This document shows, piece after piece, positions 41,903 to 58,635 of a DNA stretch of 64,000 nucleotides (its first letter is position 1; each line of letters opens with the position of its first letter). The notes under the pieces were generated by a model that saw only the letters and a program-made list of their open reading frames with translations, had not been told where the DNA came from and did no database searches. The DNA is taken from positions 110,276-174,275 of the forward strand of contig JBAYGN010000001.1 in the NCBI GenBank assembly GCA_041666645.1, in the 5' to 3' direction. The position numbers and the translations under genes are program-made. This DNA is from Minisyncoccota bacterium (GTDB lineage Bacteria; Patescibacteriota; Minisyncoccia; Phycocordibacterales; UBA5272).

Positions 41903-41945
41903 AAGTTAAAAAACACACCAGTAGAACTGGTGTGTTTTTTAACTT
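41903..41945 (-). terminator. Terminator that follows the displaced tRNA-Ser 3'-end copy
   Basis: AAGTTAAAAAACACACC agtagaac GGTGTGTTTTTTAACTT. Confidence 0.65.
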
Positions 41946-41964
41946 GTGCGGAGGATGTGAGATT
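41942..41964 (-). repeat. Direct repeat (attR-like): copy of the tRNA-Ser 3' end
   Basis: ACTTGTGCGGAGGATGTGAGATT matches 58543-58564 (ACTTGGCGGAGGATGTGAGATT) with 17 nt exact plus 5 nt after a 1-nt indel. Confidence 0.85.
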
Positions 41965-42045
41965 AGGTCACAAAACTACCTCGCTTTGCTCGAAGTAGTT
42001 TCGCGACCCCTATTCGAATCTCCGCAAGTGACGCAGGTCACTTGC
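41965..42045 (-). repeat. tRNA-linked structured module, copy D (island-internal, next to the repeat)
   Basis: The minus strand reads GCAAGTGAC-CTGC-GTCACTTGC, then GGAGATTCGAATAG, then the hairpin GGGTCGCGAAACTAC...GTAGTTTTGTGACC, then TAATCTC. It is preceded by a long A/T hairpin at 42064-42106. Confidence 0.8.
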
Positions 42046-42267
42046 TTTCTTTACCTTCGCGGTCAAAAGAAAAATCTAGAGTATGAAACTCTAGCTTTTT
42101 CTTTTGATGCGGGCATCCTCGAGTTAGGACCTTTTGAGGACAAGACCTGTAAGGTTATTTATATCATTTTAATTTTTCAAAATCAACGCTCCTCGAGCGT
42201 CTAGAAAAAGTGACAAAAGTGACACAGGATAGACTAGTAAAAGTTACAGTTAATTGTAACTATTTTC

Positions 42268-43032
42268 TTACTTTTTCCTATTTAATTCCTCTTGTGCCCT
42301 TTTTGGATTTGTAGCAAAAACAGTTACACCACGCTTATCTGGATACTCCTCAATTATCATTATTCCACCTTCAAGATCAAATTTTTCACATATAGGTTTT
42401 AGTGCTTCAAGTGTATATGCAAGAAGATCTTTGAATACAAGTTTTCTTAAGTAGTCGTTATATGGTCTTTCCATAGCTAAATCTCTAGTACCCCTGAACT
42501 TTGAGTGCAAATAGGTTGATAAGTGGCTGTAACTGTCGTACACGGAACTTGAACCAATTTCATTAGATTCCTCTCTAATACTTTTACCGTCCCAATGATT
42601 CTTATTATTACCAGACGGAGAATAATCTTCAGTCATCTTTTTAAGATACTCTAGTAACTCTTTTCCTTTTGGAGGAATATCACTCATCTTATCTGCACGC
42701 TTCAAATATTCTTTTGTTGAAAAATATTTATAGTTTGAAGCTCTTTTCTCAGTGTCGTCTTTGTATATGTATCTAAGATTAATAGTAGTCTCTAAAATAC
42801 TACGAGCCATAATAATACAGCTCCTAAAATGACCCTCTTTATAGAGAATCCTCATAGATTCATACATATCAATAATTTCTTTAAGCAGGAAATCGGTAAC
42901 ATCAAAAAGATTATCTGATACTGTGTCTCCTTTTTCTTGAAATTGTTCAAGGTGTGTTTTTAAGAAATGATTGATTCGTTCAAGATCTTTTACTTGTTCA
43001 GGTTCTTTTCTCCAAAAGTTGAATATATTCAT
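42268..43032 (-). CDS. Hypothetical helical protein (last gene of the six-gene operon)
   Basis: 254 aa. Its start overlaps the upstream stop by 4 nt. No catalytic motif recognised. Confidence 0.6.
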   Translation of the reverse strand: MNIFNFWRKEPEQVKDLERINHFLKTHLEQFQEKGDTVSDNLFDVTDFLLKEIIDMYESMRILYKEGHFRSCIIMARSILETTINLRYIYKDDTEKRASNYKYFSTKEYLKRADKMSDIPPKGKELLEYLKKMTEDYSPSGNNKNHWDGKSIREESNEIGSSSVYDSYSHLSTYLHSKFRGTRDLAMERPYNDYLRKLVFKDLLAYTLEALKPICEKFDLEGGIMIIEEYPDKRGVTVFATNPKRAQEELNRKK

Positions 43033-44288
43033 TTCTTCACATTATCATCTAAAGGGACTACTTTCAAATAATCCATAATCTTGTAACCTTTTAGATGTTC
43101 GTGTGGATCAACAAATTTATACCAAGGTTCCATATGATGATAAGTCTCACCGTCTTTTATCTCACTTAAAGAACGAGACTGCACAAGTTTCTTCGGTGGC
43201 AAGAAATCCTTATTATCTTTTATAAGAAAAAGTTGAGTATGAACACCTTTACCATAACAACTAACATTACGAGCCTTTAAAACACCATCTTTAACCCATT
43301 TTCGTATTGTAGGACTTTTGAGATTAAAACTGCTTTCAATATCATATTTTGAATACCAGCTATCTTTAAGTTTTGCCAAAGATGCAGGTATTTCTTTTTT
43401 ATCAATTGCATTCTGACAGATAAGACATTTGATACCCCATCTGTCATACCAATTATCACCTTTATCATGTGTACTATGTCCACATATAAAACATGTATAA
43501 CCAACGCCATCTAAATGAAAACCATTAGGATTTTCTTTTAATTTTTCTTCTCTTGCTTTTTCTTTTTCTTTCCATTCTTCTGAGAATTTTGCCATTTGTT
43601 GCAAACCCCACTTTTCTTCCTGATACTTTTTGCCAGCCTCATGAGTTAAGCAAAAACGGTCACGGTCTATAGCAAAGTTTTCATCTATATCCTCAGCTTC
43701 TTTTTTAGTCCATATATAATCTTCAGTTTTAGAATATTTACACTTTGAACAAGTAAAAGTTGTAACAAGTTTTTCACTGGTATTTTTCTCACTGCGTTTA
43801 AGTAGACTATTACAATGTGGGCAAAGGTCTGGCTTTACTCTCCACTCTTCACCATCAGAGAAGAAAGCTCTTCTAGGAAGACATTGATTAGGACAATCAT
43901 ACATAAATAAAACACGATCTTCTTTGTTTAACTCAGACCACAACTCTTTAAAAGTTGGTTTCAAACGATTACGACAAGTAAGACACCTCATATCTTCAGG
44001 AGCTTGTGCAGATTCATACAACTCATCTCTTTTTCTATCAGAATCCATCCACTCTTGGATAGTCTTTTCTTTATTGAGATACATTTCGCCAGTTTCAAAA
44101 TGAAGGAATAGATCTGCAACAACTTTTCTCATATGTTCTGCCTGTTTCTTACTAACACCCTTAACTTTTGGAAGGCTTGTATCTTTTTCATTGTAAGACT
44201 TTTCAAGTCTACGACAACGCCCAACAGTCATCCGATCATAACGGTCTATGTATTCTTGTCGATCTTTAAGATAGGGTGACTTTTCCAT
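43029..44288 (-). CDS. Hypothetical multi-zinc-ribbon protein with a C-terminal HTH-like segment
   Basis: 419 aa. At least five CxxC pairs: CLTCRN, CPNQC, CPHCNS, CSKCKYS, CFICGH...CLICQN. The C-terminus SPTIRKWVKDGVLKARN resembles an excisionase/MerR-type HTH. Confidence 0.6.
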   Translation of the reverse strand: MEKSPYLKDRQEYIDRYDRMTVGRCRRLEKSYNEKDTSLPKVKGVSKKQAEHMRKVVADLFLHFETGEMYLNKEKTIQEWMDSDRKRDELYESAQAPEDMRCLTCRNRLKPTFKELWSELNKEDRVLFMYDCPNQCLPRRAFFSDGEEWRVKPDLCPHCNSLLKRSEKNTSEKLVTTFTCSKCKYSKTEDYIWTKKEAEDIDENFAIDRDRFCLTHEAGKKYQEEKWGLQQMAKFSEEWKEKEKAREEKLKENPNGFHLDGVGYTCFICGHSTHDKGDNWYDRWGIKCLICQNAIDKKEIPASLAKLKDSWYSKYDIESSFNLKSPTIRKWVKDGVLKARNVSCYGKGVHTQLFLIKDNKDFLPPKKLVQSRSLSEIKDGETYHHMEPWYKFVDPHEHLKGYKIMDYLKVVPLDDNVKK

Positions 44289-44312
44289 ACCTAATTTTGT
44301 AATTATACCACT

Positions 44313-45224
44313 TTAACCAAAGCTTACATTTGGGTCTTTTATTGCATTAATTATCTCCATTCTATTTTTAAAATCTGAAATATCTGAATGACAATCTTCG
44401 ATTTCATCAATTATAGAAGATGAAAAGTCGGTTCTCTTTTTAAGCAGGAACTGTAGGTACTCAGAATCAAGAGCTGGGTCAAGAGGTAACGGTTCAATAT
44501 CTTTGATAACTTTCATTAAAGTAGATTCTTTTGTTTTCATTAAAAATGCGAGAACTTCTATCATTGCAGTTTCTTCATAATCAAAAAGGATGTCATCGCC
44601 ACCACAGAGTATTTTTGCAGCCTTAGAGCTACTGCTAGAAATCTCATCTGTATACAAGTTTTTTGCGTGTGCTGATTCTTTTATTATGAGATAAATATCT
44701 TTAGTAATTTTCTTTACGGTTTTTCCAATAAACTTTTTAACTCTTAATGAATTATCCACACCAAACATGTCGTCTGTAATATCGATTTGAAGATACTTAT
44801 TTAAAAACAAATGTAATGCTTTTTTATCTTTCGATATATTTGTTACTGATTGTAAACTGAAACGATCATATCTATGAGTTTTATAGAAAATTGAAAGAAG
44901 ATTTAATAGAGCAATATGAGAATCACCCAAGTTGATATTAGTACTCTTTTTTATTCTGTTAAGTAAATCAAGATGATTGTGTGTGATTAATGATTTTTCA
45001 AAGATATTAATATCAGTTTTGTCATTAAACTCCAAAAGGACAATAGCGACTTTAAACAATCGCTCAAGTCCAACTGAAAGATTATAAAGAACTGGGAACA
45101 CTTCTGTTTCCATACTTAAGGTTTCCATTTCATGTAGATTCCTTAATCCGTCGTAAATAAAATTACAAGCAATTTCTTGTTCCTCACCAAGTTTAAAGTT
45201 TTGCCAGAATTGTGTAGGATTCAT
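44313..45224 (-). CDS. Hypothetical protein
   Basis: 303 aa. Its start overlaps the upstream stop by 4 nt. No motif recognised with confidence. Confidence 0.6.
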   Translation of the reverse strand: MNPTQFWQNFKLGEEQEIACNFIYDGLRNLHEMETLSMETEVFPVLYNLSVGLERLFKVAIVLLEFNDKTDINIFEKSLITHNHLDLLNRIKKSTNINLGDSHIALLNLLSIFYKTHRYDRFSLQSVTNISKDKKALHLFLNKYLQIDITDDMFGVDNSLRVKKFIGKTVKKITKDIYLIIKESAHAKNLYTDEISSSSSKAAKILCGGDDILFDYEETAMIEVLAFLMKTKESTLMKVIKDIEPLPLDPALDSEYLQFLLKKRTDFSSSIIDEIEDCHSDISDFKNRMEIINAIKDPNVSFG

Positions 45225-45748
45225 ATTGTGTGATCTTTAACTTTTGATAACATTTCATCAGAAGTTTTAGCAATTAACTCCTCTGTAATTCCATATTTTT
45301 TTAGCACTGGGTCCAGAGTTATTGAAAGTTGTTCATCTGCTTCGTTTATTATACTAATAGCATCTTCAAGTTCCTTAATCATACTTTTACGACCGTCAGA
45401 AAATAAAAATTCTTTTGCACGCTCCCTAAAATAGTTATGAGCTAACCAGTTTCGAAGTGTTAATGCTTTTGCTAATTTATCAGAAAGATTTAGTGGTACA
45501 TTGGTTACTTTTTCAAGATCCTTAATCATCCGACCTAGAGTATGTTCAAAGTGTCTTGAAGTAAAAGAATCAACACTATCTTCCCAATCTTTTGAATGTG
45601 ACACTGGCATTTTTGAAGGGATGAGATCGAGATAAATAAGAGCATTAACTAAACCGTGCTCAAGACATTGGGCACTGTAGATAGCAAGTCCAAAATATGC
45701 ATAAACTTCTTTTACTTCTTCATTTTTTGATGATGTATCAATAATCAT
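45221..45748 (-). CDS. Small helical protein with a HEPN-like Rx4H motif
   Basis: 175 aa. LRNWLAHNYF fits the RNxxxH HEPN signature. Its start overlaps the helicase stop by 4 nt. Confidence 0.6.
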   Translation of the reverse strand: MIIDTSSKNEEVKEVYAYFGLAIYSAQCLEHGLVNALIYLDLIPSKMPVSHSKDWEDSVDSFTSRHFEHTLGRMIKDLEKVTNVPLNLSDKLAKALTLRNWLAHNYFRERAKEFLFSDGRKSMIKELEDAISIINEADEQLSITLDPVLKKYGITEELIAKTSDEMLSKVKDHTI

Positions 45749-47580
45749 ATATTTACTATTTCAAATCCTTCAAAACAGGTTTTGTCTTGCATTGCATCAA
45801 ATATGGTTTTTTGTATCGCGAAAGCAAAAAGATCTTGAGGTCGTGAAGACGCAACATAAATTAATTTTTTATATTTTTTAGTTAACTTATTCTGATTATT
45901 TTGCATTCCATGTTCAATATCATATTTACCGTATGGTGATTTGGTACTTGATATAAATAAAGTTGCATTATGGGTTTGACCTTTAACACTATGAATAGTG
46001 CCTATCCTAACATTAACCCCTTGAGAACTTTTATAGGAATTTGTCCTCTCTTTTATTTCAGTAGAAGTAATTTTCTTCATATTAAATTTAATAAGATCTT
46101 CTCCTAAAATAATATTCAATTTTTCCTGTAATTCAGGAAAGTTTAATACTCCTCCATTAGTTAGGATTTCATTACTAATATCTAATACCATCTTTTTAAA
46201 ATCACTATCTTCATTAAAAAGTTTTTCATGTAATTCAGTCCATGTTCCTTCATTCTTGAAATGCTTATAAAGAAGACGGTATAAAATATTGGATACATGA
46301 TGAGTGCCATTTTTTCTGACTAAATCAGGTGTAAGTAAATTTATGTAATCAATATCATTGGAAAATTTTAAAGTTTTATTTTTCTTATTACTTACCGTTG
46401 ATTCCCTGGAATAGGAGTCAGGGAAACTCTCAATTAATTGATCATGCTCATAGGCAATAGCAAAATAGCCTTTCTGGTTGTCATGTGGTATCTGTTTAGA
46501 AATTAAAATTTCTGAGAATTTTTCAAGGAGATCTTCATTACAACCATTTGAGTAAGTAATTAGAATCTTTTCAGAAGTATTAGTAGATCCTCTTATTGTA
46601 TTTTCTCCAAAGGTGTTTAGACAAAAACCACTCACAAAGGTAATTAGATTTGAACCACAGCGAATTGATTGACCCAAAAATAAAGTAGGTTCAGGGGCAC
46701 TCCAAGCATCTTCAGATATAGACTGATTTATGTCCCCAATTTGTTGGAAACATACTTGTGTATTTTTCCCGAACAAATCATCTAACAATTTAAGTTGAAT
46801 TTCAGAACAATCTTGTGATTCATCAAGCAATACAAAATTAAACCTTTTACTAATAATCTTACTGAACACAGGGTGCTGTTTTAAATACTCCAATGCGTAT
46901 ATAAAACTTTCAATAAATAAAAAGTTACCCTTCTGATGTTGTTTATCTATTAAAGTTTTTATATGGGTATTTGATTGAGCCAATGGAAACGCTATAGTCT
47001 TTAAACTATTGTATTCTGTAAGTTTCTTTGAATCTACGACTTTATCTTGATAGAAACATAGCCTATGAAACTCATTCCAAAATCTAGCAACGGCATCATC
47101 TCCTCCGTGTCTTAATTGTGATAGCTTATTCGATATTCTTGTCTTTAAAGAAGTATCCCCGTCATTGTCATAGTCAAGATATCTACTTTCATCTTGAAAT
47201 CTTATCTGCATATTTACACTTGCTAGATAAGGTATAAAAAGAAATTTATTTACAAATTCTTGTATAGTGCCTACAAAATTTGGATACTCCATTATTTCAG
47301 GATAATGATTTGCTACTCTACTTTTGATTTCATCAATAGCAATATTAGTATGGGAAATAACACAAATACCTTTTCCTGTTTCCCAAACTCTTTTTTGAGC
47401 AAGGATATGTAATTTACCAACCAAAGTACTAGTTTTCCCTGACCCTGCATACGATTGTAAAGAACAAGAATCTAAACATTTTAAAAAAGCTTTTTGTTCG
47501 TCTGAAAAAGACCCTTGTCCAAGGAAAATATCTTGTTCGGCTTTATTTATCTCTTCATCTGTGACAATAAAATTACACAT
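45745..47580 (-). CDS. UvrD/PcrA/Rep-like superfamily 1 helicase (GajB-like)
   Basis: 611 aa. Walker A YAGSGKTSTLV, Walker B VLLDESQD, and the C-terminal motifs IGTIHSVKGQTHNATLF and IYVASSRPQDL. Confidence 0.85.
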   Translation of the reverse strand: MCNFIVTDEEINKAEQDIFLGQGSFSDEQKAFLKCLDSCSLQSYAGSGKTSTLVGKLHILAQKRVWETGKGICVISHTNIAIDEIKSRVANHYPEIMEYPNFVGTIQEFVNKFLFIPYLASVNMQIRFQDESRYLDYDNDGDTSLKTRISNKLSQLRHGGDDAVARFWNEFHRLCFYQDKVVDSKKLTEYNSLKTIAFPLAQSNTHIKTLIDKQHQKGNFLFIESFIYALEYLKQHPVFSKIISKRFNFVLLDESQDCSEIQLKLLDDLFGKNTQVCFQQIGDINQSISEDAWSAPEPTLFLGQSIRCGSNLITFVSGFCLNTFGENTIRGSTNTSEKILITYSNGCNEDLLEKFSEILISKQIPHDNQKGYFAIAYEHDQLIESFPDSYSRESTVSNKKNKTLKFSNDIDYINLLTPDLVRKNGTHHVSNILYRLLYKHFKNEGTWTELHEKLFNEDSDFKKMVLDISNEILTNGGVLNFPELQEKLNIILGEDLIKFNMKKITSTEIKERTNSYKSSQGVNVRIGTIHSVKGQTHNATLFISSTKSPYGKYDIEHGMQNNQNKLTKKYKKLIYVASSRPQDLFAFAIQKTIFDAMQDKTCFEGFEIVNI

Positions 47581-47586
47581 ACAATT

Positions 47587-51358: not shown

Positions 51359-52807
51359 ATGAAAAACAAACATATCTTTGATGTTTTAAGTAGAAATATC
51401 ATCAACAAAATGATGAAAGATAAAGCTGTTAGGGTTGCAATTACTACAGAAAGCTTTTTGTATTTCTTTCACTTTTACTATGCACATTATGTGGGATACA
51501 AGACAGCAGATTTTCAGAAAGAAATTTTTCATTTACTTGAAAAGAGTAATACTGAAAATCTTTACATTGTTGCCTTTCGTGGGTCAGGTAAATCAACTCT
51601 TGTTACTACTGCTTACCCTATATGGGCAATATTAGGTAAACAAAAAAAGAAATTCTGTGTTATCTTTTGCCAAACAAGAAATCAAGCTAAGCAACACATG
51701 ATGAACATTAAAAAAGAGCTCGAAAATGATAATCTTCTTAAAAGTGATCTCGGTCCTTTCCAAGAAGAATCAGATGAGTGGGGGTCGTATTCTTTAGTGT
51801 TTAAAAAACATGGGGCAAGAATTACTGTTGCTTCAACTGAGCAAAGTATCCGTGGTATTCGTCACAATGAACACAGGCCAGACTTAATTATTTGTGACGA
51901 TGTGGAAGATGTTCAATCTGCTAAAACACGAGACGGTCGTGATAAAACATATAACTGGCTTAGAGGTGAGGTTATTCCTTGTGGTGATATAAATACTCGC
52001 TTAATTATTATAGGCAACTTACTTCATGAAGATTCGTTACTGATGAGAATTCAAGATGAGGTGAATAATAATAAAACAAGAGGAGTGTTTAAGAAGTATC
52101 CACTATTAAACGATAATGGTGAATGCTTGTGGACTGGTAAATATCCCGATGAAGAAGCAATCGAGGATGAAAGACTAAAAGTTGCAAGTGAAGTTTCTTG
52201 GTATAGAGAGTATTTACTTAAGATAATCTCTACCGACGGACAAATCGTAAATCCTGAATGGATACAATTTTATGATAAATTTCCAGCAACTGGTCTACAT
52301 AGTATTTGTATAGGTATTGATCTTGCGGTAAGCGAAAGAGATTCCGCAGACTGTACAGCCATGTTAGTTGGGTATGTATATGGAACAGGTAAAAATATGA
52401 AAGTTTATCTAAAAGAGAATCCAATTAATGAAAGAATCTCATTTCCTGTACAAGCAGAATATGTAAAAGCATTAGTAGCTACTGAGAAATTAATACATCA
52501 TAGAGTTAAACTGTTTGTGGAAGATGTTGGATATCAAAAAGCATTTATACAACTCTTTGAAAGTAAGAACTACAATATAGAGGGTGTTCCAACAGGAAGA
52601 AACGATAAAGCTACACGATTAAGAATGACTACTCCTTTTATTAAAGAAGGAAGAGTCCTTTTTCCTAAAAATGGCTGTGAGGAATTGATTCAACAATTAC
52701 TAGGATTTGGAAAAGAAAAACATGACGATCTTGCGGATTCTTTTTCAATCTTAGTATTAAAAGTAATTGAAACTAATCCTAGTGGTGGAGGAATATTATT
52801 TGGGTAA
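51359..52807 (+). CDS. Phage terminase large subunit
   Basis: 482 aa. Walker A FRGSGKSTL and Walker B LIICDDVED. The C-terminal RNase-H-like nuclease has acidic residues at GIDLAVSERDSAD and HDDLADSF. Confidence 0.8.
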   Translation: MKNKHIFDVLSRNIINKMMKDKAVRVAITTESFLYFFHFYYAHYVGYKTADFQKEIFHLLEKSNTENLYIVAFRGSGKSTLVTTAYPIWAILGKQKKKFCVIFCQTRNQAKQHMMNIKKELENDNLLKSDLGPFQEESDEWGSYSLVFKKHGARITVASTEQSIRGIRHNEHRPDLIICDDVEDVQSAKTRDGRDKTYNWLRGEVIPCGDINTRLIIIGNLLHEDSLLMRIQDEVNNNKTRGVFKKYPLLNDNGECLWTGKYPDEEAIEDERLKVASEVSWYREYLLKIISTDGQIVNPEWIQFYDKFPATGLHSICIGIDLAVSERDSADCTAMLVGYVYGTGKNMKVYLKENPINERISFPVQAEYVKALVATEKLIHHRVKLFVEDVGYQKAFIQLFESKNYNIEGVPTGRNDKATRLRMTTPFIKEGRVLFPKNGCEELIQQLLGFGKEKHDDLADSFSILVLKVIETNPSGGGILFG

Positions 52808-53551
52808 CCTTCCTCCACTGTTTAAACAATCATTTATTGAAGCAAAAGAAGTATATTTAAGAGTTGCGTTATAATACCTTGTCCCTTTAGCATGACAGAT
52901 TCCTGTACTACTCTTTTTAACTTCAGTATTGCTAGTACTAACTGTTGTATTGACTATGCTGTTTTCTTTTGGAGCAAGTATGACACTTGTTACCACAGTA
53001 GTAGCAACAGGAACAACATTTGAAGTTGTAGTTTTTGGTTGTACGACTGTTTTAGTGGTAACACCCAATACTTCTATTTGATAGTAAGATAGCCAATCAG
53101 ATGATATTTGTCTTTGTGCTTCTACAATATCCATCTTTCCACCACACACTTGTTTATGTAGATAGTTTTCAAACTTATCCTTTATACGAGCATTATCTTT
53201 GATTGTGTAAGATTCAGGATAAAGATTAGATATGTCATTACTTCCACCAAGCTCTAAACTAATGATATGGTCTACTTCGTAGTTACTTCTTTGAGAGTAA
53301 GGAATACCGTATTCTTTAAATACTTTCTTCTTAGTTGTTTCAGTTACATTTCTAACAGTTTTTGTATAACCTGTTTTACAGATTACTTTTATATCTGTTG
53401 TTAATACTGCCCCAGGAGAACAAGCAGAATCTGGCAGTGTTTGATTACCTACACAGTTACTCGTTTTAGTTTGAATCCCATAAGTAGCAAAAACTACATT
53501 ACTTGAAATTAGAGCTAACGAAACGAAGAATATAGATATCTTTTTGTTCAT
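52796..53551 (-). CDS. Secreted HNH-motif nuclease-like protein
   Basis: 251 aa. Signal-peptide-like N-terminus and YEVDHIISLELGGSNDISNLYPE (an HNH-type motif). Confidence 0.6.
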   Translation of the reverse strand: MNKKISIFFVSLALISSNVVFATYGIQTKTSNCVGNQTLPDSACSPGAVLTTDIKVICKTGYTKTVRNVTETTKKKVFKEYGIPYSQRSNYEVDHIISLELGGSNDISNLYPESYTIKDNARIKDKFENYLHKQVCGGKMDIVEAQRQISSDWLSYYQIEVLGVTTKTVVQPKTTTSNVVPVATTVVTSVILAPKENSIVNTTVSTSNTEVKKSSTGICHAKGTRYYNATLKYTSFASINDCLNSGGRLPK

Positions 53552-53563
53552 AGTATTTACATA

Positions 53564-54040
53564 CTACCTTATAACCATCTCGTTTGGAACCCAACCTGCT
53601 TGTCCTATATATTTACCTTCATTGATTCTAACTTCACTAGAAAAATAACTAGCATCAATCACTTTAACTGCTGTACTTTTATCTACCAATAAAATCTTTC
53701 CATCTAATGACATTTGAGCAAGTCCAGTTGTATCATTAGCTGCAACAAGCTTCATCATTTCATCGTAGTAACTTTTATTTATAGCAACTAAAACTGGATT
53801 ATTACCTGAAATAGTTAAGTGAGCATTCTCTCCAATTTTTACAGATTCAACTACAGGCTGTGATGTGCTTGAACCATCTGAAAATGATGACCGTATAATA
53901 CCTATTACAAAAAGAATTAAGATACTCTGATAGATTCTTTTCTTGATTACTGATGGTTGTTTTTTACCACAATGTTTACATACTGTGGCATCGTTTAAAA
54001 TTTCTTCTTTACAGAAGTTACACTTTTTATTTGTATTCAT
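53564..54040 (-). CDS. Zinc-ribbon membrane protein, hypothetical
   Basis: 158 aa. CNFCKEE...CKHCGKK zinc ribbon followed by one TM. Confidence 0.5.
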   Translation of the reverse strand: MNTNKKCNFCKEEILNDATVCKHCGKKQPSVIKKRIYQSILILFVIGIIRSSFSDGSSTSQPVVESVKIGENAHLTISGNNPVLVAINKSYYDEMMKLVAANDTTGLAQMSLDGKILLVDKSTAVKVIDASYFSSEVRINEGKYIGQAGWVPNEMVIR

Positions 54041-54046
54041 AAATTA

Positions 54047-54190
54047 TCTGATAGGACTTAATAATCTCTCGTGGAAAGCAAAAATCCCACCACGTGAGTA
54101 AGGTCTTGCGACCTTCATATCTGTTTCCAGATATGGCCTATCAGAGCAAAGCCCACATGATGGGGTTTTTACTCTGATAGGACTTTTTTC
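54047..54190 (+). promoter_or_regulatory. Candidate structured leader or small RNA with mutually exclusive helices upstream of the recombinase gene
   Basis: CTGATAGG (54048-54055) can pair with CCTATCAG (54137-54144), enclosing three hairpins. Alternatively CCTATCAGAG pairs with CTCTGATAGG (54172-54181), which is followed by TTTTTT. A possible promoter TTACAC-16 nt-TAAATT lies just upstream. Confidence 0.4.
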
Positions 54191-54342
54191 ACCATATCAA
54201 TATTGCTATTGGGTTAGGTTACTATTGAATTGTTCCTCTTAATACTCTTTGTATTAATCTATTGATTATATCGCAAATAATTGCTTTTGCTAAGGCATTT
54301 TTATCAACAAATAAATCTCTCACAATGTCGCCTTTTTTAATT

Positions 54343-54359
54343 CTGCATAGACTATGCAG
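54343..54359. promoter_or_regulatory. Perfect 8+8 palindrome upstream of the recombinase gene (possible operator)
   Basis: CTGCATAG a CTATGCAG, about 20 nt upstream of the TATAAT that abuts the annotated ATG. Confidence 0.35.
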
Positions 54360-54386
54360 GGATTATGGTTCTGTCATTAATATAAT

Positions 54387-55712
54387 ATGGAACAACAAGA
54401 AACATTTGGACTTATGGGCAATATGGTAGCTCTACCAGTTCAAAAAATGAAATACGTTTTGTATAGTAGAAAAAGTACTGAATCAGAAGAAAGACAAATT
54501 CTTTCAATTGATTCTCAAATTAAAGAAATGCTTAGATTAGCAGAAAGAGAAGGATTAGAAATAGTGGATATCAGACGAGAATCTCATTCAGCTAAAGATT
54601 CAGGACAACGACCAGTTTTTAAAGAAATATTAGAAGATATAAAAAGAGGAAGATTTAATGGAATACTTGCATGGGACGCTTCAAGAATTAGTAGAAATGC
54701 TGGTGACTTAGGTTCAATAGTAGATCTTATGGATCAACAGTTGCTTTTTCAAATACGAACATATGGGCAAACATTTTCTAACTCTCCAAATGAAAAGTTT
54801 TTGCTAATGATTTTATGTTCTCAAGCAAAACTAGAGAACGATAATAAAAGTGTAAATGTGAAGCGTGGACTAAGAACTAGAGTTGAGATGGGATTATGGC
54901 CATGCCCTGCCCCTACTGGATATTTGAAAGAAAATAGAATGGATAGAAAATGTCAGACATATATTGATCCAGATAGAGGTCATATCATTAAAGAAATGTT
55001 TGAGAAGATTGCTTATAATAAATGGAGTTGTTTAAAAGTCTACCATTGGCTTAAATTTGATCTTAATTTTAGAACTTCATACGGAAAGAAACATCTTAGT
55101 TTAGGGAACATTAACTTACTTTTAAAGAACACCTTTTACTATGGAGAATTTGAGTATCCAAGAAAAAGTGGTAACTGGTATAAAGGAAGTCATAAACCAC
55201 TCATTACCAAAGAACTATACGATCAAGTACAAGCTCAACTGACAAGACAAATTACAAGAACAGAATTCAATAACAGAGAATTCGCTTTCACCAAACTAAT
55301 GACTTGTGGGCTTTGCGGTTCTGGTATTACAGCTGATGAAAAGATAAAGAAACAACAGAATGGTAATATTCATCGATATGTCTATTATGCGTGTACTAAA
55401 GCAAAAGATAAAAACTGTAAATGTGGCTATACCAATGAAGACGAACTCATAAAACAGTTTCAAGAACTATTGGATAAAATTGACCTAGACGAGATAGGCA
55501 TGAAAGAAAAGATACGAACTGAGGTTGAAAGGATTAAGAGCTTCCAAAGAAGCGTTTTAGGGGATACAAAGCAAATTAAGGTTAAGGATGTAGATATTCG
55601 TAACTATGCTAAGTACATCCTAAAAGAAGGAACTGACCTAGAAAAAAGAGAACTATTAGGATGTTTTAAAAGTAAGATTTTATTAAAAAATAAAATGATA
55701 TCTATTACTTAG
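54387..55712 (+). CDS. Large serine recombinase
   Basis: 441 aa. N-terminal resolvase motif YSRKSTESEE with the catalytic Ser, then a recombinase domain, then the zinc ribbon CGLCGSG...YYACTK...C.C. The true start may be a later in-frame ATG. Confidence 0.85.
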   Translation: MEQQETFGLMGNMVALPVQKMKYVLYSRKSTESEERQILSIDSQIKEMLRLAEREGLEIVDIRRESHSAKDSGQRPVFKEILEDIKRGRFNGILAWDASRISRNAGDLGSIVDLMDQQLLFQIRTYGQTFSNSPNEKFLLMILCSQAKLENDNKSVNVKRGLRTRVEMGLWPCPAPTGYLKENRMDRKCQTYIDPDRGHIIKEMFEKIAYNKWSCLKVYHWLKFDLNFRTSYGKKHLSLGNINLLLKNTFYYGEFEYPRKSGNWYKGSHKPLITKELYDQVQAQLTRQITRTEFNNREFAFTKLMTCGLCGSGITADEKIKKQQNGNIHRYVYYACTKAKDKNCKCGYTNEDELIKQFQELLDKIDLDEIGMKEKIRTEVERIKSFQRSVLGDTKQIKVKDVDIRNYAKYILKEGTDLEKRELLGCFKSKILLKNKMISIT

Positions 55713-56472
55713 TCTTTGGTTTCTTTTCGCTTATAAACTCACTTATTTTATTTGGTCTATCTCTAAGAAGCCATCTTCGTATGACAGTATTCATATAAGA
55801 GTTCTTTAAACGAAAAGCTCTTATCTCTGCAGGTGTATCACTGAAAGGTTGTTTAGTTTTTGATTTTCTGTCACTTGGGTCTTTAAAAGTTCCTCCATGT
55901 TTAGGGCATAATGTAAGATTTGTGTGTTGGTGTTGATGTATATGATGAGCTTCTCCTTTTTTAATATAATCAAGAATCATTTTGTAATCATCGTTAATTT
56001 CATTAATTACCGTGCTATCCATTTCCCAAAGAAAAACATATTTAATTAAATACTCGGAACGGAGTTTATTTTTGTCATGTATATACCACACGAAAAGAAC
56101 TTTTTTGTTCTTCTTATACAAAGACGACTCTGTTACATTTCCTTTTTTATACTCCTCGCTGTAGTTAATAATATTTAAAGACAAAGGTTCTTTAACCCTA
56201 AGCTTTCCATCTTTACCAAGAGATAAAGGGCTTGTTTTTAATTCAACCCCAAGATGAGGAATATCTGGACCTGCAGTATTGTTTTTACCAATCCCAAAAT
56301 ATCCTTCTTCAATAACATATCCAACTCCAGCTTTCGTGCTGACGCGGGTACTAGAATCACTCGCTGTAATAGAAGCCATTATTTGCTGTAAGGTTTTACC
56401 TTCAAGATCATGTTGTGCAATTTTTTCTAAATCTTGAGAAGTCTTTATTTCAGCTAAATTAAGAATTGACAT
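55705..56472 (-). CDS. MutH/Sau3AI-family type II restriction endonuclease
   Basis: 255 aa. GPDIPHLGVELKTSPL matches the D...E-x-K core of MutH-like nucleases. It is divergently paired with a C5 methyltransferase. Confidence 0.7.
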   Translation of the reverse strand: MSILNLAEIKTSQDLEKIAQHDLEGKTLQQIMASITASDSSTRVSTKAGVGYVIEEGYFGIGKNNTAGPDIPHLGVELKTSPLSLGKDGKLRVKEPLSLNIINYSEEYKKGNVTESSLYKKNKKVLFVWYIHDKNKLRSEYLIKYVFLWEMDSTVINEINDDYKMILDYIKKGEAHHIHQHQHTNLTLCPKHGGTFKDPSDRKSKTKQPFSDTPAEIRAFRLKNSYMNTVIRRWLLRDRPNKISEFISEKKPKTK

Positions 56473-56573
56473 GTAATCGCATTATAGAACAAAAACTTGA
56501 TCTTCTCCACCTTTTGTGTTTTAATACTTAAAGCTTGATCGAAACAATCCAATGTGATAGAATTATCTTTGAT

Positions 56574-57815
56574 ATGAAAAGTGATAATAAAAAAATTAGA
56601 GTTGTTGAATTGTTCGCTGGTGTTGGTGGTTTCCATATAGGTTTAAAGAGAGCTTCAAAAGATTTTGAGGTGGTTTTAAGTAATCAATGGGAGCCAGCCA
56701 CAAAGAAGCAACATGCTTCAGAAGTTTATATAGAACGATTCGGGTCTGATGGACATACTAATGTTGATATTAAAACACTTACTATCTCCGAAATTCCAGA
56801 ACATGATTTGTTAGTAGGAGGATTTCCTTGCCAAGATTATTCTGTTGCAACTAGTCAAGCAAGTGGTCTTGATGGAAAAAAAGGAGTGTTGTGGTGGGAG
56901 ATTCATAGAATTTTAAAAGAGAGTGGTAAAAAAGCACCTTCATATTTAATGTTAGAAAATGTTGACCGTCTACTGAAATCACCAACATCACAAAGAGGTA
57001 GAGATTTCGCAATCATGCTTTCTTCTCTTAATAGTCTTGGGTATGCTGTAGAATGGAGAATAATTAACGCGGCTGATTATGGTATGCCACAACGAAGAAG
57101 AAGAGTGTTTATTATGGGATATAAGAAGGGAACTGCTTTATACGAGAAAATTACAGAGAATAAAGATGTATCTGATTGGATAAAAAAAACTGGGACAATA
57201 GCAAAAGCTTTTCCTGTCAAAAAAGAAGTCTACTTAAATGATTTCAAAATTGAAGGAACTCTTGCAGAAATTACAAAAGAGTTTAATAAAGAAAATCCAT
57301 CGAGAAGCCCATTTGGTACTGCTGGGGTATCTATTAATGGAAAAGTAACTACTGGTGATATTGAACCAGATTATTCTGGTAAGCGTATTAACCTTGGTGA
57401 TATTGTATTAGACGAGAAAGATGTCCCTAAAGAATTTTTTATAGAGAAAAAAGATATAGAAAAATGGAAATATCTAAAAGGGGCAAAGAAGGAAGAGCGT
57501 AGTAAAGGTGATTTTACTTTCTTTTATGTTGAAGGTCCTATGGTATTTCCTGACTCACTCGATAAACCATCAAGAACAATCATTACAGCTGAAGGAGGGT
57601 CAACACCTTCTCGTTTTAAACATGTTATAAAAACAAAATCTGGAAAGCTAAGAAGACTAACTCCTTTGGAATTAGAAAGATTATGTATGTTCCCTGATAA
57701 TCATACAGAAGGTCAAGCAGATACAAAAAGAGCTTTCTTTATGGGCAACGCTTTAGTTGTCGGTGTCATAGAAAGGTTAGGAAAACACCTTTCTAAAGAA
57801 GTGTCTAAAGATTAG
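56574..57815 (+). CDS. dcm: DNA (cytosine-5)-methyltransferase
   Basis: Motif I FAGVGGF, motif IV GGFPCQDYS, motif VI ENV, motif VIII QRRRRVF, motif X GNALVV. I prefer the ATG at 56574 to the track TTG at 56535. Confidence 0.92.
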   Translation: MKSDNKKIRVVELFAGVGGFHIGLKRASKDFEVVLSNQWEPATKKQHASEVYIERFGSDGHTNVDIKTLTISEIPEHDLLVGGFPCQDYSVATSQASGLDGKKGVLWWEIHRILKESGKKAPSYLMLENVDRLLKSPTSQRGRDFAIMLSSLNSLGYAVEWRIINAADYGMPQRRRRVFIMGYKKGTALYEKITENKDVSDWIKKTGTIAKAFPVKKEVYLNDFKIEGTLAEITKEFNKENPSRSPFGTAGVSINGKVTTGDIEPDYSGKRINLGDIVLDEKDVPKEFFIEKKDIEKWKYLKGAKKEERSKGDFTFFYVEGPMVFPDSLDKPSRTIITAEGGSTPSRFKHVIKTKSGKLRRLTPLELERLCMFPDNHTEGQADTKRAFFMGNALVVGVIERLGKHLSKEVSKD

Positions 57816-58083
57816 TATTAGTTGAAATTCCTATTTTAGATAAGTTAATTAGCAGTTGCTTACTAGATTCCTCAAAACCGCCTTCAAAAAGAAAAGAATC
57901 TGAATGGTCAACCCATACAATTTCTGGAACTGTTTCTAAAATTAGTTCACTTATATTTTTATGAAGACTTTTTATTTCTTCTTTTGACAGTTTAGATTCT
58001 ACTAAAGATTTCTCTATAGTCTCAAGCAGGGTTGGGAGTTCTTTGTTATCAGGCTTAAATTGTTCACTCCATTTAATTGTCAT
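57805..58083 (-). CDS. Hypothetical protein
   Basis: 92-aa ORF. No motif recognised. Confidence 0.4.
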   Translation of the reverse strand: MTIKWSEQFKPDNKELPTLLETIEKSLVESKLSKEEIKSLHKNISELILETVPEIVWVDHSDSFLFEGGFEESSKQLLINLSKIGISTNTNL

Positions 58084-58121
58084 TATTATATACTACTCCT
58101 TTTTATCTAAGTTGAAAACCT

Positions 58122-58445
58122 TTAAATTCTATTTGTATCAACTGTTTCTTTAGATAAATTATCCAAATCTTCTACAACTGCAATAAATTCTCTTTCTTCT
58201 TTTTCAATTTTAGCTAACTCTTTATCTGAATATTCAGTTTTTAAACTTTCTTCTCTTGTTACCTTTTTTAAATATAAATATATTAACCACTCAACACCCA
58301 CTGCGAATATAAACAATAAAATACTTAAAACTGGGTGATTAGTGTGCTTAAAACTATTTATAAAATTACTAAACATTCCCAATACAAGCCAAATGCCGAC
58401 AAACTCTATCCAATAGTTCTTTATCCAAGATTTTAGGGATTTCAT
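58122..58445 (-). CDS. Hypothetical membrane protein
   Basis: 107 aa with two hydrophobic helices. Confidence 0.45.
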   Translation of the reverse strand: MKSLKSWIKNYWIEFVGIWLVLGMFSNFINSFKHTNHPVLSILLFIFAVGVEWLIYLYLKKVTREESLKTEYSDKELAKIEKEEREFIAVVEDLDNLSKETVDTNRI

Positions 58446-58545
58446 AAAAATTATTAGTTAAATTATATCACAAAAGCTACCTAATTAAGGTAGCTTTTGT
58501 TGTCATTTAATTCTATGCTCATCGAGCACCAGAACCTAAACGACT

Positions 58546-58635
58546 TGGCGGAGGATGTGAGATTCGAACTCACGGTCCGGTTGCCCAGACGACAGTTTAG
58601 TAAACTGTTGCTTTAGACCACTCAGCCAATCCTCC
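58546..58635 (-). tRNA. Type II tRNA-Ser with an apparent ACU anticodon; CCA encoded
   Basis: Acceptor GGAGGAT/ATCCTCC plus G73 and CCA. D arm GCT/AGC. Anticodon arm ACAGT-TTACTAA-ACTGT. Long variable arm. T arm CGTGA-GTTCGAATC-TCACA. Confidence 0.75.

What the first reader, a model, noticed from the sequence alone, without database searches (positions are those of the whole stretch)
41942..58564. tRNA-Ser-integrated composite island combining defence, packaging, R-M and a serine recombinase
Direct repeats of the tRNA 3' end bound the segment: 17 nt exact, extended by 5 more after a 1-nt indel. The only recombinase is a large serine recombinase, and it lies in the island interior (54387-55712), not at an end. 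No tyrosine integrase is visible.

The cargo falls into blocks separated by structured intergenic regions:
- Gabija-like operon: 42.3-49.3 kb
- ParB-methylase and terminase: 49.7-52.8 kb
- HNH and zinc-ribbon genes: 52.8-54.0 kb
- Recombinase plus R-M: 54.4-57.8 kb

This suggests modular assembly.
Basis: partly seen in the sequence, partly recalled or inferred. Interest (0 to 1): 0.6.

Follow-up and report, generated by a model that had tools for sequence, protein, structure and literature searches.

The report
Defence island beside tRNA-linked folded repeat
A 16.4-kb mobile island full of anti-phage genes sits at the very end of a serine tRNA gene in a tiny 'candidate phyla radiation' bacterium, probably put there by a serine recombinase, but the repeat that seemed to mark its borders belongs to a separate folded element, not found in Rfam or my literature searches, that follows about half of the tRNA genes in this lineage.

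Summary
The 17(+5)-nt repeat, the large serine recombinase (LSR), the absence of a tyrosine integrase and the gene blocks are all present.

The interpretation needs correcting. The window comes from a Candidatus Paceibacterota (CPR) genome. The island is about 42,109-58,551 (16.44 kb). It belongs to a large metagenomic family with this layout: ParB-methylase, TerS, TerL, LOOT RNA, LSR, variable defence cargo, then a convergent tRNA. In 34 of 80 relatives the LSR faces one of 12 tRNA species. None of them has a long tRNA repeat.

The junctions place the crossover in a 4-nt core (CCGC, tRNA positions ~71-74). A conserved distal end module stops exactly at '...CA|', at window 42108.

The 17-nt repeat is the 3' tail of a separate ~105-165-nt element, which I call 'E'. 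E follows 5 of the 6 tRNAs in the window and 27 anticodon types in about 28 CPR MAGs. It has three covarying helices and conserved G.U pairs. Its tail restarts the local tRNA at T-loop position 57. E matches no Rfam family.

So the island lies between tRNA-Ser(ACU) and that tRNA's E copy. The island is a new variant of a known kind. E may be new.

The parts
58546..58635 (-). tRNA-Ser(ACU), the integration target. Its encoded CCA (58546-58548) is island-derived in my reconstruction.
   Evidence: ARAGORN; Rfam tRNA, 58.9 bits; junction analysis.
58548..58551 (-). attL common core CCGC (tRNA positions ~71-74). The inferred LSR crossover lies within it.
   Evidence: attL CATCCTCCGC|CAAGTCG and attR GAGGATGCCCGCA|TCAAAAG compared with the inferred attB CATCCTCCGCATCAAAAG (sequences). 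This is an inference.
58500..58547 (-). tRNA-proximal island arm (P'): CAAGTCGTTTAGGTTCTGGTGCTCGATGAGCAT.
   Evidence: Island-specific sequence starts right after the tRNA, as in relatives. L071 shares CCA|AGTCGT, and other LSR subfamilies have their own conserved motifs at this position.
58122..58445 (-). 107-aa ORF of unknown function (possibly membrane).
   Evidence: only sub-threshold hits.
57805..58083 (-). 92-aa ORF of unknown function.
   Evidence: no hits.
56535..57815 (+). C5 cytosine DNA methyltransferase (the R-M methylase).
   Evidence: PF00145, E 4e-67. The same MutH+Dcm pair lies between the LSR and the tRNA in L076 and L078.
55705..56472 (-). MutH/Sau3AI-type type II restriction endonuclease.
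   Evidence: PF02976, E 1.5e-22; PADLOC REase_II, E 1.7e-39.
54387..55712 (+). Large serine recombinase, the presumed integrase/excisase.
   Evidence: Resolvase, Recombinase and Zn_ribbon_recom domains. phrog_95 integrase, E 2.5e-58. More than 311 metagenomic relatives.
54100..54220 (-). LOOT RNA (RF03000), a backbone element lying divergent from the LSR gene.
   Evidence: 87.1 bits against a gathering score of 46.4. The same position and strand in 7 of 11 related loci.
53564..54040 (-). 158-aa zinc-ribbon protein, 60 nt downstream of LOOT.
   Evidence: Weak DZR/Zn_ribbon hits. Similar small Zn-ribbon genes occur in relatives (family f10).
52796..53551 (-). 251-aa protein with a weak HNH motif.
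   Evidence: PF01844, E 8e-4, below cutoff; phrog_37565.
51359..52807 (+). Terminase large subunit.
   Evidence: phrog_38, E 1.4e-81; NCBIfam terminase models. Conserved in 14 related loci.
50952..51353 (+). Small HTH protein, TerS-like. It could instead be an excisionase-type factor.
   Evidence: phrog_4044/309 terminase small subunit, E 8e-8. Weak HTH_17/AlpA hits. Present in 17 loci.
49691..50965 (+). ParB-like N-terminal domain fused to an N6/N4 DNA methyltransferase.
   Evidence: PF01555; phrog_498 and ParB phrogs. Present in 24 loci.
45745..49329 (-). Gabija: GajA (47587-49329) and GajB (45745-47580).
   Evidence: PADLOC GajA, E 1.4e-141; GajB, E 8.7e-106.
42268..45748 (-). Four genes downstream of Gabija: 175 aa, 303 aa, a 419-aa multi-zinc-ribbon protein, and DUF5677 (254 aa). 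Function unknown.
   Evidence: No PADLOC, PHROG or NCBIfam hits. The 419-aa family has more than 339 members in the CPR names and contexts seen. Its AF2 model has pLDDT 85 and no PDB fold match.
42205..42226 (-). Conserved 22-nt family motif TGTGTCACTTTTGTCACTTTTT in the distal end module.
   Evidence: 100% identical over 20-26 nt in L075, L078, L079, L083, L086, L091, L104, L148 and L069.
42108..42131 (-). Distal island arm. It is a pseudo-tRNA 3' end, GGTCCTAAC-TCGAG-GATGCCC-G-CA, with the same spacing as T-loop, T-stem, acceptor and CA. It contains the attR core CCGC (42109-42112).
   Evidence: The same architecture ends at 'CA|' in L075, L148, L104, L069, L079, L083 and L031. Flanks differ beyond that point.
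41942..42107 (-). E1, the tRNA-linked E element. It is not part of the island. Components: terminator-like hairpin H0 (42063-42107), core with helices P2/P3/P4 (41965-42050), and a tail copying tRNA nt 58-74 (41948-41964, plus CAAGT at 41942-41946).
   Evidence: CM R1, 103 bits; alignments; covariation.
58685..58825 (-). E2, an E element after tRNA-Ser(GCU) (58826-58913). 17-nt repeat TGCGGAGACGGCGGGAT.
   Evidence: D18; 77 bits.
60746..60898 (+). E3, an E element after tRNA-Glu(CUC).
   Evidence: 97.6 bits.
20381..20558 (+). E4, an E element after tRNA-Met (20309-20380). The 32-nt repeat runs from T-loop nt 57 to 15 nt past the tRNA end.
   Evidence: 110 bits.
18179..18345 (+). E5, an E element after tRNA-Asp. 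Its tail has decayed.
   Evidence: 96 bits.

Best explanation
The segment holds two independent things that happen to sit next to each other.

(1) The island. It spans about 42,109-58,551 (16.44 kb). It is a mobile defence island driven by a large serine recombinase, with a phage-satellite-like gene set. It is inserted into the last few nucleotides of tRNA-Ser(ACU), with the crossover inside the 4-nt core CCGC at tRNA positions ~71-74.
- Backbone: ParB-methylase, TerS-like HTH, TerL, LOOT RNA and LSR.
- Variable cargo: Gabija, four unknown genes, and a Sau3AI/MutH-type R-M system.
- Proposed life cycle: the LSR recombines a ~50-bp attP with the end of a tRNA gene. The left arm of attP mimics a tRNA T-loop/acceptor end at the same spacing. 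The island then supplies the tRNA's CCA.
- The terminase genes, in the absence of capsid genes, suggest transfer inside the particles of a helper phage.

(2) The repeat. The 17(+5)-nt 'direct repeat' is the tail of an E element. E is a ~105-165-nt strand-specific folded repeat found just downstream of about half the tRNA genes in some CPR lineages. Its 3' end re-copies the local tRNA from T-loop position 57. The island lies between the tRNA and that tRNA's E copy, so the repeat brackets the island by accident of geometry.

Shown:
- Gene identities.
- Family architecture.
- The LSR-tRNA linkage.
- The conserved distal end stopping at CA|.
- E copies, their covariation and the position-57 rule.

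Inferred:
- The crossover position.
- LSR catalysis.
- Helper-phage packaging.
- The order of events.
- What E does.
For: Organism. The 419-aa island protein is identical to a protein of a Candidatus Paceibacterota MAG. E-bearing relatives are almost all CPR MAGs.

Island family.
- There are more than 311 LSR relatives, and the 80 best are 57-70% identical.
- The order ParBMT-TerS-TerL-...-LSR-cargo-tRNA(-) recurs.
- 34 of 80 loci have a convergent tRNA 95-7714 bp after the LSR, covering 12 tRNA species. Of the 46 loci without one, 36 have less than 3 kb of downstream sequence.
- Cargo is mainly R-M systems, RadC and a reverse transcriptase.
- The five IMG/VR contigs with the closest TerL have the same island layout, not a phage layout.
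- LOOT RNA is at the same place in 7 of 11 loci.

Boundaries.
- Island-type motifs start immediately after the tRNA 3' end in relatives.
- The distal module (the 22-nt motif, then a pseudo-T-arm about 100 nt later, then 'CA|') is shared by eight loci.
- L069, L079 and L083 have near-identical distal modules followed by three different flanks. Only L069 continues into H0+E.

The repeat is not a family feature. No tRNA repeat of 11 nt or more occurs in the LSR loci. There are no E copies in 810 kb of LSR loci, which hold 49 tRNAs.

E is independent.
- There are five copies in the window and four have no island.
- There are 94 copies in 60 sources.
- 92.7% of cells are paired, against about 40% when the partner column is slid.
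- 577 cells have changes on both sides, against 174 in shuffles.
- G.U is conserved at two P4 positions, in 87/93 and 66/93 sequences.
- In most of the copies that have an upstream tRNA in the locus, the tail starts at tRNA position 57, and identity to the tRNA runs 3-32 nt.
- Islands also lie between a tRNA and its E in L069, L025, L055, L041 and L031.
Against: - No empty attB and no circular attP junction was recovered. Same-strain metagenome contigs all carry the island or break at E. The predicted attP string is absent from IMG/VR.
- The crossover core rests on a reconstructed attB (tRNA-CA followed by H0), not on an observed one.
- The reconstructed attP has no significant ungapped dyad symmetry (11/29 matches, within the shuffle range).
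- The 5-nt CAAGT shared by the island's proximal arm and the old trailer after the left repeat is an unexplained coincidence. It leaves the order of events open: E first, or island first.
- No recombination directionality factor, replication module or helper phage was identified.
- The absence of E in LSR loci could partly reflect which lineages were sampled.
Confidence: 0.75

Rival explanations
1. The 17(+5)-nt repeats are attL and attR of the island. The island (41942-58564, E1 included) integrated by crossover in the T-loop/3' part of tRNA-Ser and regenerated the tRNA end, as in classical tDNA islands.
For: The repeat is real and consists of tRNA 3'-end sequence. The geometry, an intact tRNA at one end and a displaced 3' fragment at the other, is what classical tDNA islands show. 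The extra CAAGT match extends the repeat beyond the tRNA.
Against: The same fragment-plus-fold unit follows four other tRNAs of the window with only 140-165 bp between the repeats and no cargo. LSR relatives have no such repeat. The family's conserved distal end stops at 42108, upstream of H0/E1, and the same end abuts unrelated DNA in E-free genomes. Serine recombinases need only a 2-bp overlap (established knowledge). No tyrosine integrase is present.
Confidence: 0.08
2. A 'loaded E' or cassette model. E is itself a recombination site, read as a folded single strand in the manner of integron attC. The island and other cargo were captured between the tRNA and E by an E-specific recombination system, and the LSR plays no role in this placement.
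For: Tandem E arrays occur in L027, L028, L031, L038 and L064. Small recombinase-less gene sets lie between a tRNA and E, or between two E copies: L063 (3.3 kb between identical E copies), L053, L012, L009, L015. The E fold is strand-specific.
Against: The island's two ends are those of the LSR family, which also occurs in genomes without E. No recombinase is consistently linked to E. The L063 arrangement duplicates H0, E and trailer, and could come from ordinary homologous recombination.
Confidence: 0.1
3. The region is a decayed prophage remnant or ancestral DNA that is no longer mobile.
For: Terminase, HNH and methylase genes are phage-like. No circular form or empty site was seen.
Against: The same compact backbone, with no gene matching capsid, portal or tail families among those annotated, recurs in dozens of contigs next to 12 different tRNAs with different cargo. 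The LSR is full-length with its RKST catalytic motif conserved. Both end modules are intact. GC is lower than in the flanks.
Confidence: 0.05

Closest known systems
SCCmec-type cassette chromosomes (CcrAB/CcrC large serine recombinases)
   Same: The island is mobilised by an LSR. It is inserted at the extreme 3' end of a conserved housekeeping gene, so the gene stays intact. The recombinase gene is not at the very end. Cargo is modular and swappable. The best NCBIfam hit of the LSR is CcrB.
   Different: The target is a tRNA gene, with many different tRNAs used across the family, not rlmH. The CcrB score is 104 bits against a cutoff of 900, so this LSR is not a Ccr orthologue. The backbone carries TerS/TerL, a ParB-methylase and the LOOT RNA. 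The host is CPR.
Phage-inducible chromosomal islands and other phage satellites (PICI, cf-PICI)
   Same: Size of 10-17 kb. An integrase. Packaging genes (TerS-like, TerL, HNH), but no gene matching a capsid, tail or lysis family. Site-specific chromosomal integration. Defence cargo.
   Different: The integrase is a serine recombinase. No replication module or Stl-like repressor was recognised. No helper phage is known. Induction and packaging are untested. IMG/VR calls relatives 'viral', but they show the same island layout.
Classical tDNA genomic islands (Islander class) and tycheposons of Prochlorococcus (from my own knowledge; bioRxiv 10.1101/2020.12.28.424599 was listed but not read)
   Same: Islands in small streamlined genomes that target tRNA genes, keep the tRNA functional, and accumulate beside tRNAs together with partial-tRNA repeats.
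   Different: Those elements mainly use tyrosine recombinases that cross over inside the tRNA (anticodon or T-loop) and leave a displaced tRNA fragment as their own attR. Here the crossover is inferred in the last ~4 nt, and the displaced-looking fragment belongs to another element.
For E: folded single-strand sites and palindromic repeats (integron attC, IS200/IS605 ends and their PATE/REP derivatives), and tRNA 3' external transcribed spacer RNAs (from my own knowledge)
   Same: Short and non-coding. Strand-specific fold conserved by covariation while the sequence varies. Many copies per genome. A segment 5' of a hairpin pairs with sequence 3' of it, as guide sequences do in IS608. Located in tRNA 3' trailers.
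   Different: No linked integron integrase, HUH transposase or RAYT was found. E always restarts the neighbouring tRNA at position 57 and is tailored to each tRNA. No Rfam family matches. Transcription is untested.

Membership tests
Large serine recombinase (phage-integrase/Ccr/TnpX type) | N-terminal resolvase catalytic domain with the nucleophilic serine | tested here: met
   PF00239, E 5e-19, residues 24-169. The R28-K29-S30-T31 motif is invariant against L069.
Large serine recombinase (phage-integrase/Ccr/TnpX type) | C-terminal recombinase domain plus zinc-ribbon domain | tested here: met
   PF07508, E 7e-11; PF13408, E 1.6e-8. phrog_95 integrase.
Large serine recombinase (phage-integrase/Ccr/TnpX type) | Catalyses attP x attB recombination at a 2-bp crossover | not testable with these tools
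   The only evidence is the inference from the junctions (4-nt shared core CCGC). No assay was possible.
Ccr recombinases of SCC elements | Orthology to CcrA/B/C (NCBIfam equivalog cutoff) | tested here: not met
   CcrB 104 bits against a cutoff of 900. CcrC 54 bits against 900.
Gabija defence system | Adjacent GajA (ABC-type ATPase plus OLD/TOPRIM nuclease) and GajB (UvrD-type helicase) | tested here: met
   PADLOC GajA, E 1.4e-141; GajB, E 8.7e-106. Pfam AAA_15 + OLD-like_TOPRIM and UvrD-helicase. The genes are adjacent (47587 and 47580).
Type II restriction-modification system | Endonuclease gene next to a cognate methyltransferase gene | tested here: met
   MutH/Sau3AI-type REase_II lies beside a C5 methylase. 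The pair is conserved in L076 and L078. Specificity was not tested.
Phage satellite (PICI-like) | Integrase plus packaging-redirection genes, without capsid, tail or lysis genes, in an island of about 10-20 kb | tested here: met
   LSR, TerS-like, TerL and HNH are present. No island ORF matches a structural phrog. Size is 16.4 kb.
Phage satellite (PICI-like) | Own replication module and master repressor; induction and packaging by a helper phage | not testable with these tools
   No primase/rep or repressor was recognised. The helper is unknown. The TerL lineage was found only in island-type contigs of IMG/VR.
Classical tDNA island (tyrosine integrase, displaced tRNA fragment = attR) | Tyrosine integrase gene beside the tRNA | tested here: not met
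   No Phage_integrase domain in any island ORF.
Classical tDNA island (tyrosine integrase, displaced tRNA fragment = attR) | The direct repeat of the tRNA 3' part is produced by the island's own integration | tested here: not met
   The repeat is the tail of E1. E occurs without islands. Family members lack such repeats. The island end module stops before E.
Any described RNA family (Rfam 15), for element E | Covariance-model match | tested here: not met
   No hit at gathering thresholds. Only spurious sub-threshold hits at E1 and E4.
Structured RNA or folded single-strand element (generic), for element E | Helices supported by compensatory changes beyond the controls, and strand asymmetry | tested here: met
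   92.7% of cells paired, against 37-45% when slid. 26 of 35 pairs have changes on both sides. 0 of 500 shuffles reach the observed values. Two G.U positions are conserved. Caveat: the alignment was fitted to the model. An independent RNAalifold run on 5 copies gave the same helices.
MITE / IS-derived repeat, for element E | Terminal inverted repeats, a fixed-length target duplication, and a related autonomous element encoding a transposase | tested here: inconclusive
   The repeat length varies (3-32 nt identical, always starting at tRNA nt 57). No transposase or integrase was found in E-associated cargo. Only 8-kb slices of the genomes were available.

The most novel reading that the evidence does not exclude
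Element E may be a previously undescribed class of tRNA-linked folded nucleic-acid element in CPR bacteria. One reading is a miniature mobile element that inserts at T-loop position 56/57 of many different tRNA genes. In that reading it uses a fold whose P3 helix is complementary to each target, which would amount to a guide-like, single-strand-dependent targeting mechanism. The other reading is a dedicated structured RNA made from tRNA 3' trailers that pairs with the tRNA's own 3' strand. In addition, the LSR island family, with the orphan LOOT RNA as a backbone part, may be the main vehicle of defence-gene exchange in CPR. It appears to retarget among tRNAs by reading the universal T-loop box at a fixed distance from the crossover.
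Probability: 0.45. Interest if true: 0.85.

Novelty: new variant of a known kind. Interest (0 to 1): 0.68.

Why it matters
CPR/Patescibacteria make up a large share of bacterial diversity. They have ~1-Mb genomes, mostly lack CRISPR and have few recognised mobile elements. Three points follow from this analysis.

1. **A vehicle for defence genes.** A single widespread family of serine-recombinase islands docks on the 3' ends of at least 12 tRNA species and carries Gabija, R-M systems and terminase genes. That gives a concrete route for defence-gene traffic in these organisms. It also gives a set of natural LSR/att pairs with tRNA-end specificity.

2. **A home for LOOT.** The family provides a genomic context for LOOT, an RNA motif for which the discovery paper's main text gives no context.

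3. **A caveat for island-finding software.** E shows that a 'displaced tRNA 3' fragment' is not always an island scar. In these genomes such fragments come from a folded repeat that follows about half the tRNAs. E's covariation, its conserved G.U pairs and its exact start at T-loop nt 57 make it a candidate new RNA or mobile-DNA class, and this can be tested by RNA-seq and population genomics.

Tried and rejected
1. **Empty site or circular form.**
   - Exact-protein look-ups of both flanks and of the LSR returned only same-strain contigs. These carry the island or break inside E.
   - L037, the closest GTDB relative by MscL (80% identity), has rearranged synteny and no tRNA-Ser pair.
   - The predicted attP string is absent from IMG/VR.

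2. **Inverted-repeat search between island ends in 23 loci.** Scores did not exceed shuffles.

3. **Dyad symmetry of the reconstructed attP.** Not significant, so I do not claim it.

4. **L075 as an intact attP (excised form).** Rejected. The sequence beyond its distal end is not significantly similar to the window's proximal arm (score 44 against a shuffle maximum of 42), and the next genes are unrelated.

5. **E as part of the LSR element.** Rejected. There are no E copies in 80 LSR loci, nor in four further island loci.

6. **E in viruses.** No hits in IMG/VR.

7. **E as a known RNA.** No Rfam match. Seven literature searches, two of them aimed at E, found no description.

8. **E cores clustering by genome or by tRNA type**, to separate vertical inheritance from spread. 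No signal: mean identity is 0.58-0.61 in all classes.

9. **A recombinase in E-flanked small cargo.** None found. The genes are GNAT/ASCH, IucA/C, a methyltransferase, a trypsin-like peptidase and YecM.

10. **The 419-aa protein as TnpB-like or a known fold.** No Pfam or PDB sequence hit, and no Foldseek hit at E<=0.001.

Full report
**1. Checking the observation**

ARAGORN finds tRNA-Ser(ACU) at 58546-58635(-), next to tRNA-Ser(GCU) at 58826-58913(-). The 17-mer GCGGAGGATGTGAGATT occurs at 41948-41964 and at 58548-58564 (D17). It continues as ACTTG after a 1-nt indel. It is the reverse complement of the tRNA from T-loop nt 58 to the discriminator plus C.

Pfam, PADLOC, PHROG and NCBIfam scans confirm most of the gene blocks:
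- GajA and GajB (E 1e-141 and 1e-106).
- A ParB-methylase.
- A TerS-like HTH protein.
- TerL (E 1e-81).
- A weak HNH protein and a zinc-ribbon protein.
- One large serine recombinase (LSR).
- A MutH/Sau3AI-type endonuclease and a C5 methylase.

No tyrosine integrase is present. Island GC (0.30-0.34) is lower than in most of the rest of the window.

**2. The repeat belongs to something else**

Reading the left border showed that the 17-mer is followed by a T-loop-like TTCGAAT, the motif GGGGTCGCG and a long hairpin. The same arrangement lies between the two tRNA-Ser genes and after tRNA-Glu. A search for GGGGTCGCG found a fourth copy after tRNA-Met, and inspection found a fifth after tRNA-Asp. 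Five of the six tRNAs in the window therefore carry this element, which I call E.

In tRNA sense, each copy consists of:
- a terminator-like hairpin (H0) starting right after the tRNA's N73-CA;
- hairpin P2, with a conserved CUGC loop;
- an 8-nt segment complementary to the start of the tail (P3);
- the bulge GAAUA(C)GG;
- a long hairpin P4 (GGUCGCGAA...UUUGUGACC);
- a tail that re-copies the neighbouring tRNA.

At tRNA-Met the copied stretch is 32 nt, running from T-loop G57 to 15 nt past the tRNA. At the two tRNA-Ser genes it is 17 nt. At Asp and Glu it has decayed. Four of the five copies have only 140-165 bp between the repeats and no cargo.

RNAalifold on the five copies supports P2, P3 and P4, with 17 of 35 pairs showing compensatory changes. 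A covariance model finds only these five copies in the window, at 77-110 bits. The next best hit scores 27 bits.

**3. E is a lineage-wide, tRNA-linked element**

A pattern scan of one genome per GTDB species gave 63 loci. Nearly all are CPR MAGs: Saccharibacteria, Paceibacterota/Parcubacteria, Nomurabacteria and Gracilibacteria. In these loci:
- E sits 13-75 nt downstream of a tRNA, in the same orientation.
- It follows 27 anticodon types.
- Tandem arrays occur.
- Across 94 copies, 92.7% of cells are paired, against 37-45% when the partner column is slid.
- 577 cells have changes on both sides, against 174 in shuffles.
- Two P4 positions are G.U in 87/93 and 66/93 sequences.

The conserved G.U pairs mean the fold exists on the tRNA-sense strand only, as RNA or as single-stranded DNA. 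In most of the copies that have an upstream tRNA in the locus, the tail starts at tRNA position 57, while identity to the resident tRNA ranges from 3 to 32 nt.

In E-positive loci, 54 of 97 tRNAs have an E. This figure is biased upward, because the loci were selected for having E. None of the 49 tRNAs in the LSR loci has one. E cores do not cluster by genome or by tRNA type. E matches no Rfam family, is absent from IMG/VR, and did not turn up in the literature searches.

**4. What the island is**

The 419-aa island protein is identical to a protein of a Candidatus Paceibacterota MAG. A metagenome scan with the LSR found more than 311 relatives. The 80 best are 57-70% identical. Mapping island proteins and tRNAs on these loci gave the following:
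- The recurrent order is ParB-methylase, TerS-like, TerL, variable genes, LSR, variable genes, then a convergent tRNA.
- 34 of 80 loci show the LSR-to-tRNA arrangement, at 95-7714 bp, with 12 tRNA species.
- Of the 46 loci without a tRNA, 36 have less than 3 kb of downstream sequence.
- Cargo is dominated by type I, II and III R-M systems, RadC and a reverse transcriptase.
- None of the gene families recurring across these loci, nor any island ORF, matches a capsid, portal or tail family.

The five IMG/VR contigs with the closest TerL (48-59% identity) have the same island layout. The orphan Rfam motif LOOT lies just upstream of the LSR, on the opposite strand, in 7 of 11 loci and in the window. 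The family is therefore a compact LSR island with a satellite-like packaging module and swappable defence cargo. The MutH/Dcm pair between the LSR and the tRNA, also present in L076 and L078, is what makes the LSR look 'interior'.

**5. Where the island really ends**

No LSR locus has a tRNA 3' repeat of 11 nt or more, and none contains E.

*Proximal end.* Island-type motifs begin directly after the tRNA. The window has CCA|AGTCGTTTAGG, L071 has CCA|AGTCGTGATAGC, and other LSR subfamilies have their own motifs.

*Distal end.* A conserved module recurs:
- It starts with the 22-nt motif TGTGTCACTTTTGTCACTTTTT (window 42205-42226).
- About 100 nt later comes a pseudo-tRNA end, GGT(C/T)CTAAC-N5-N7-N-CA. 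Its spacing matches T-loop, T-stem, acceptor and CA.
- The module ends at 'CA|'.
- L069, L079 and L083 share near-identical modules but continue into three different sequences. Only L069, which is from an E-positive genome, continues into H0+E, as does the window at 42107.

*Crossover.* Compare attL (CATCCTCCGC|CAAGTCG) and attR (GAGGATGCCCGCA|TCAAAAG) with the attB expected from unoccupied tRNA-E loci (N73-CA|H0). This leaves a 4-nt common core, CCGC, at 58548-58551 and 42109-42112. For the tRNA-Glu-type elements the core is TCAC. The island is therefore about 42,109-58,551 (16.44 kb) and supplies the encoded CCA.

This step is an inference. I did not observe an empty site or a circle, and attP dyad symmetry is not significant.

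Islands also lie between a tRNA and its E in L069, L025, L055, L041 and L031. That is what one expects if elements targeting tRNA 3' ends land in genomes where E already trails the tRNAs.

**6. How it most likely works**

*Island (confidence about 0.75).*
- The LSR recombines attP with the last nucleotides of a tRNA gene.
- The left arm of attP mimics the T-loop box and acceptor end at the same distance from the crossover as in the tRNA. This offers a way to retarget among tRNAs (inference).
- TerS, TerL and HNH without structural genes suggest packaging into a helper phage's capsids (inference from gene content only).
- Gabija, R-M and the unknown four-gene set are cargo.

*E (mechanism unknown).* My ranking is as follows.

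(a) A non-autonomous insertion element specific for T-loop position 56/57, acting through a folded single strand, about 0.45. Supporting points:
- the exact start of the tail at position 57;
- variable-length decaying tails;
- tandem arrays;
- patchy distribution;
- near-identical cores (up to 96%) at different tRNAs in different species.

(b) A functional structured RNA in tRNA 3' trailers, whose anti-3' segments pair with the tRNA's own 3' strand, about 0.35. Supporting points:
- In L066, the complementary segments (the 5' strand of P3, and a segment upstream of P2 that I call P1) match the resident tRNA rather than the old tail.
- H0 stems include the tRNA's 3' end.

(c) Something else, about 0.2.

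The order of events, E first or island first, is not settled. The CAAGT shared by the island arm and the old trailer is unexplained.

**7. Comparison with known systems, and verdict**

The closest known systems are SCC-type LSR cassettes, PICI-like satellites and tDNA islands/tycheposons. The island is not a Ccr orthologue. It lacks the tyrosine integrase and the self-made tRNA repeat that define classical tDNA islands. Its satellite status is untested.

A 2025 survey of Patescibacteria islands reports R-M islands, but a word search of its main text found no occurrence of 'recombinase', 'integrase' or 'tRNA' (PMC12455944).

Verdict:
- The island is a new variant of a known kind.
- The repeat revealed a possibly new class of tRNA-linked folded element.

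Noticed in passing
window 54100-54220 (-); L071, L072, L074, L075, L076, L078, L081: The orphan Rfam motif LOOT (RF03000) is a backbone part of the LSR island family. In most loci it lies 150-300 nt upstream of the LSR gene on the opposite strand (L074 and L076 are exceptions). In the window it is 60 nt upstream of a zinc-ribbon gene. It may be a leader or regulatory RNA of the island.
   Followed up: partly
window 58546-58635 (-); also L066, L016, L114, L139, L144, L147: tRNA-Ser with anticodon ACU (A34) recurs in these CPR genomes, usually beside or near tRNA-Ser(GCU). A34 is unusual in bacterial tRNAs other than tRNA-Arg(ACG).
   Followed up: no
window 18178, 20380, 58826, 60745 and many loci: tRNA genes that are not occupied by an island end in N73-CA rather than CCA. 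They are followed by a long A-tract/T-tract hairpin whose base pairs with the last nucleotides of the tRNA. This holds even at the E-less tRNA-Met at 20129-20203. Island-occupied tRNAs often carry an encoded CCA supplied by the island.
   Followed up: partly
window 43029-44288 (-): The 419-aa multi-CxxC protein belongs to a highly conserved family: more than 339 members at 57-73% identity. The named members are CPR and the four contexts examined are LSR/ParB-methylase islands. The AF2 model is confident (pLDDT 85) but has no PDB fold match at E<=0.001. Partners in other loci are proteins of ~700, 352 and ~165 aa.
   Followed up: partly
window 42205-42226 (-); L075, L078, L079, L083, L086, L091, L104, L148, L069, L031: A motif of two GTCAC-TTTT units, TGTGTCACTTTTGTCACTTTTT, is 100% conserved over 20-26 nt in nine of these loci (L031 has one mismatch), although their proteins are only ~50-70% identical. 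It is probably a protein-binding site (operator or recombination accessory site). In L086 and L091 it is not at the island end.
   Followed up: partly
L063 1-3757; L053, L012, L009, L015, L034: Small gene sets without a recombinase lie between a tRNA and E, or between two E copies. The genes include IucA/C-like, hydrolase, GNAT/ASCH, SAM-methyltransferase, trypsin-like peptidase and YecM. L063 has two identical H0+E+tail units flanking 3.3 kb that includes a GC-rich, foreign-looking gene. Their distal junctions carry a GTTC...GCACA pseudo-tRNA end that is 5 nt longer than in the LSR islands.
   Followed up: partly
L155-L159 (IMG/VR UViGs): Contigs that IMG/VR classifies as viral are LSR islands of this family (ParB-methylase, second methylase, TerS, TerL, LSR, large R-M-like genes). 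They do not have the layout of a phage genome.
   Followed up: partly
L041 442-5268: A 1608-aa protein combining a superfamily-1 helicase (AAA_11/AAA_12) with a C-terminal MTES_1575/DUF559 endonuclease domain. It lies in an island whose distal gene is a DUF5677 homologue of window 42268-43032.
   Followed up: no
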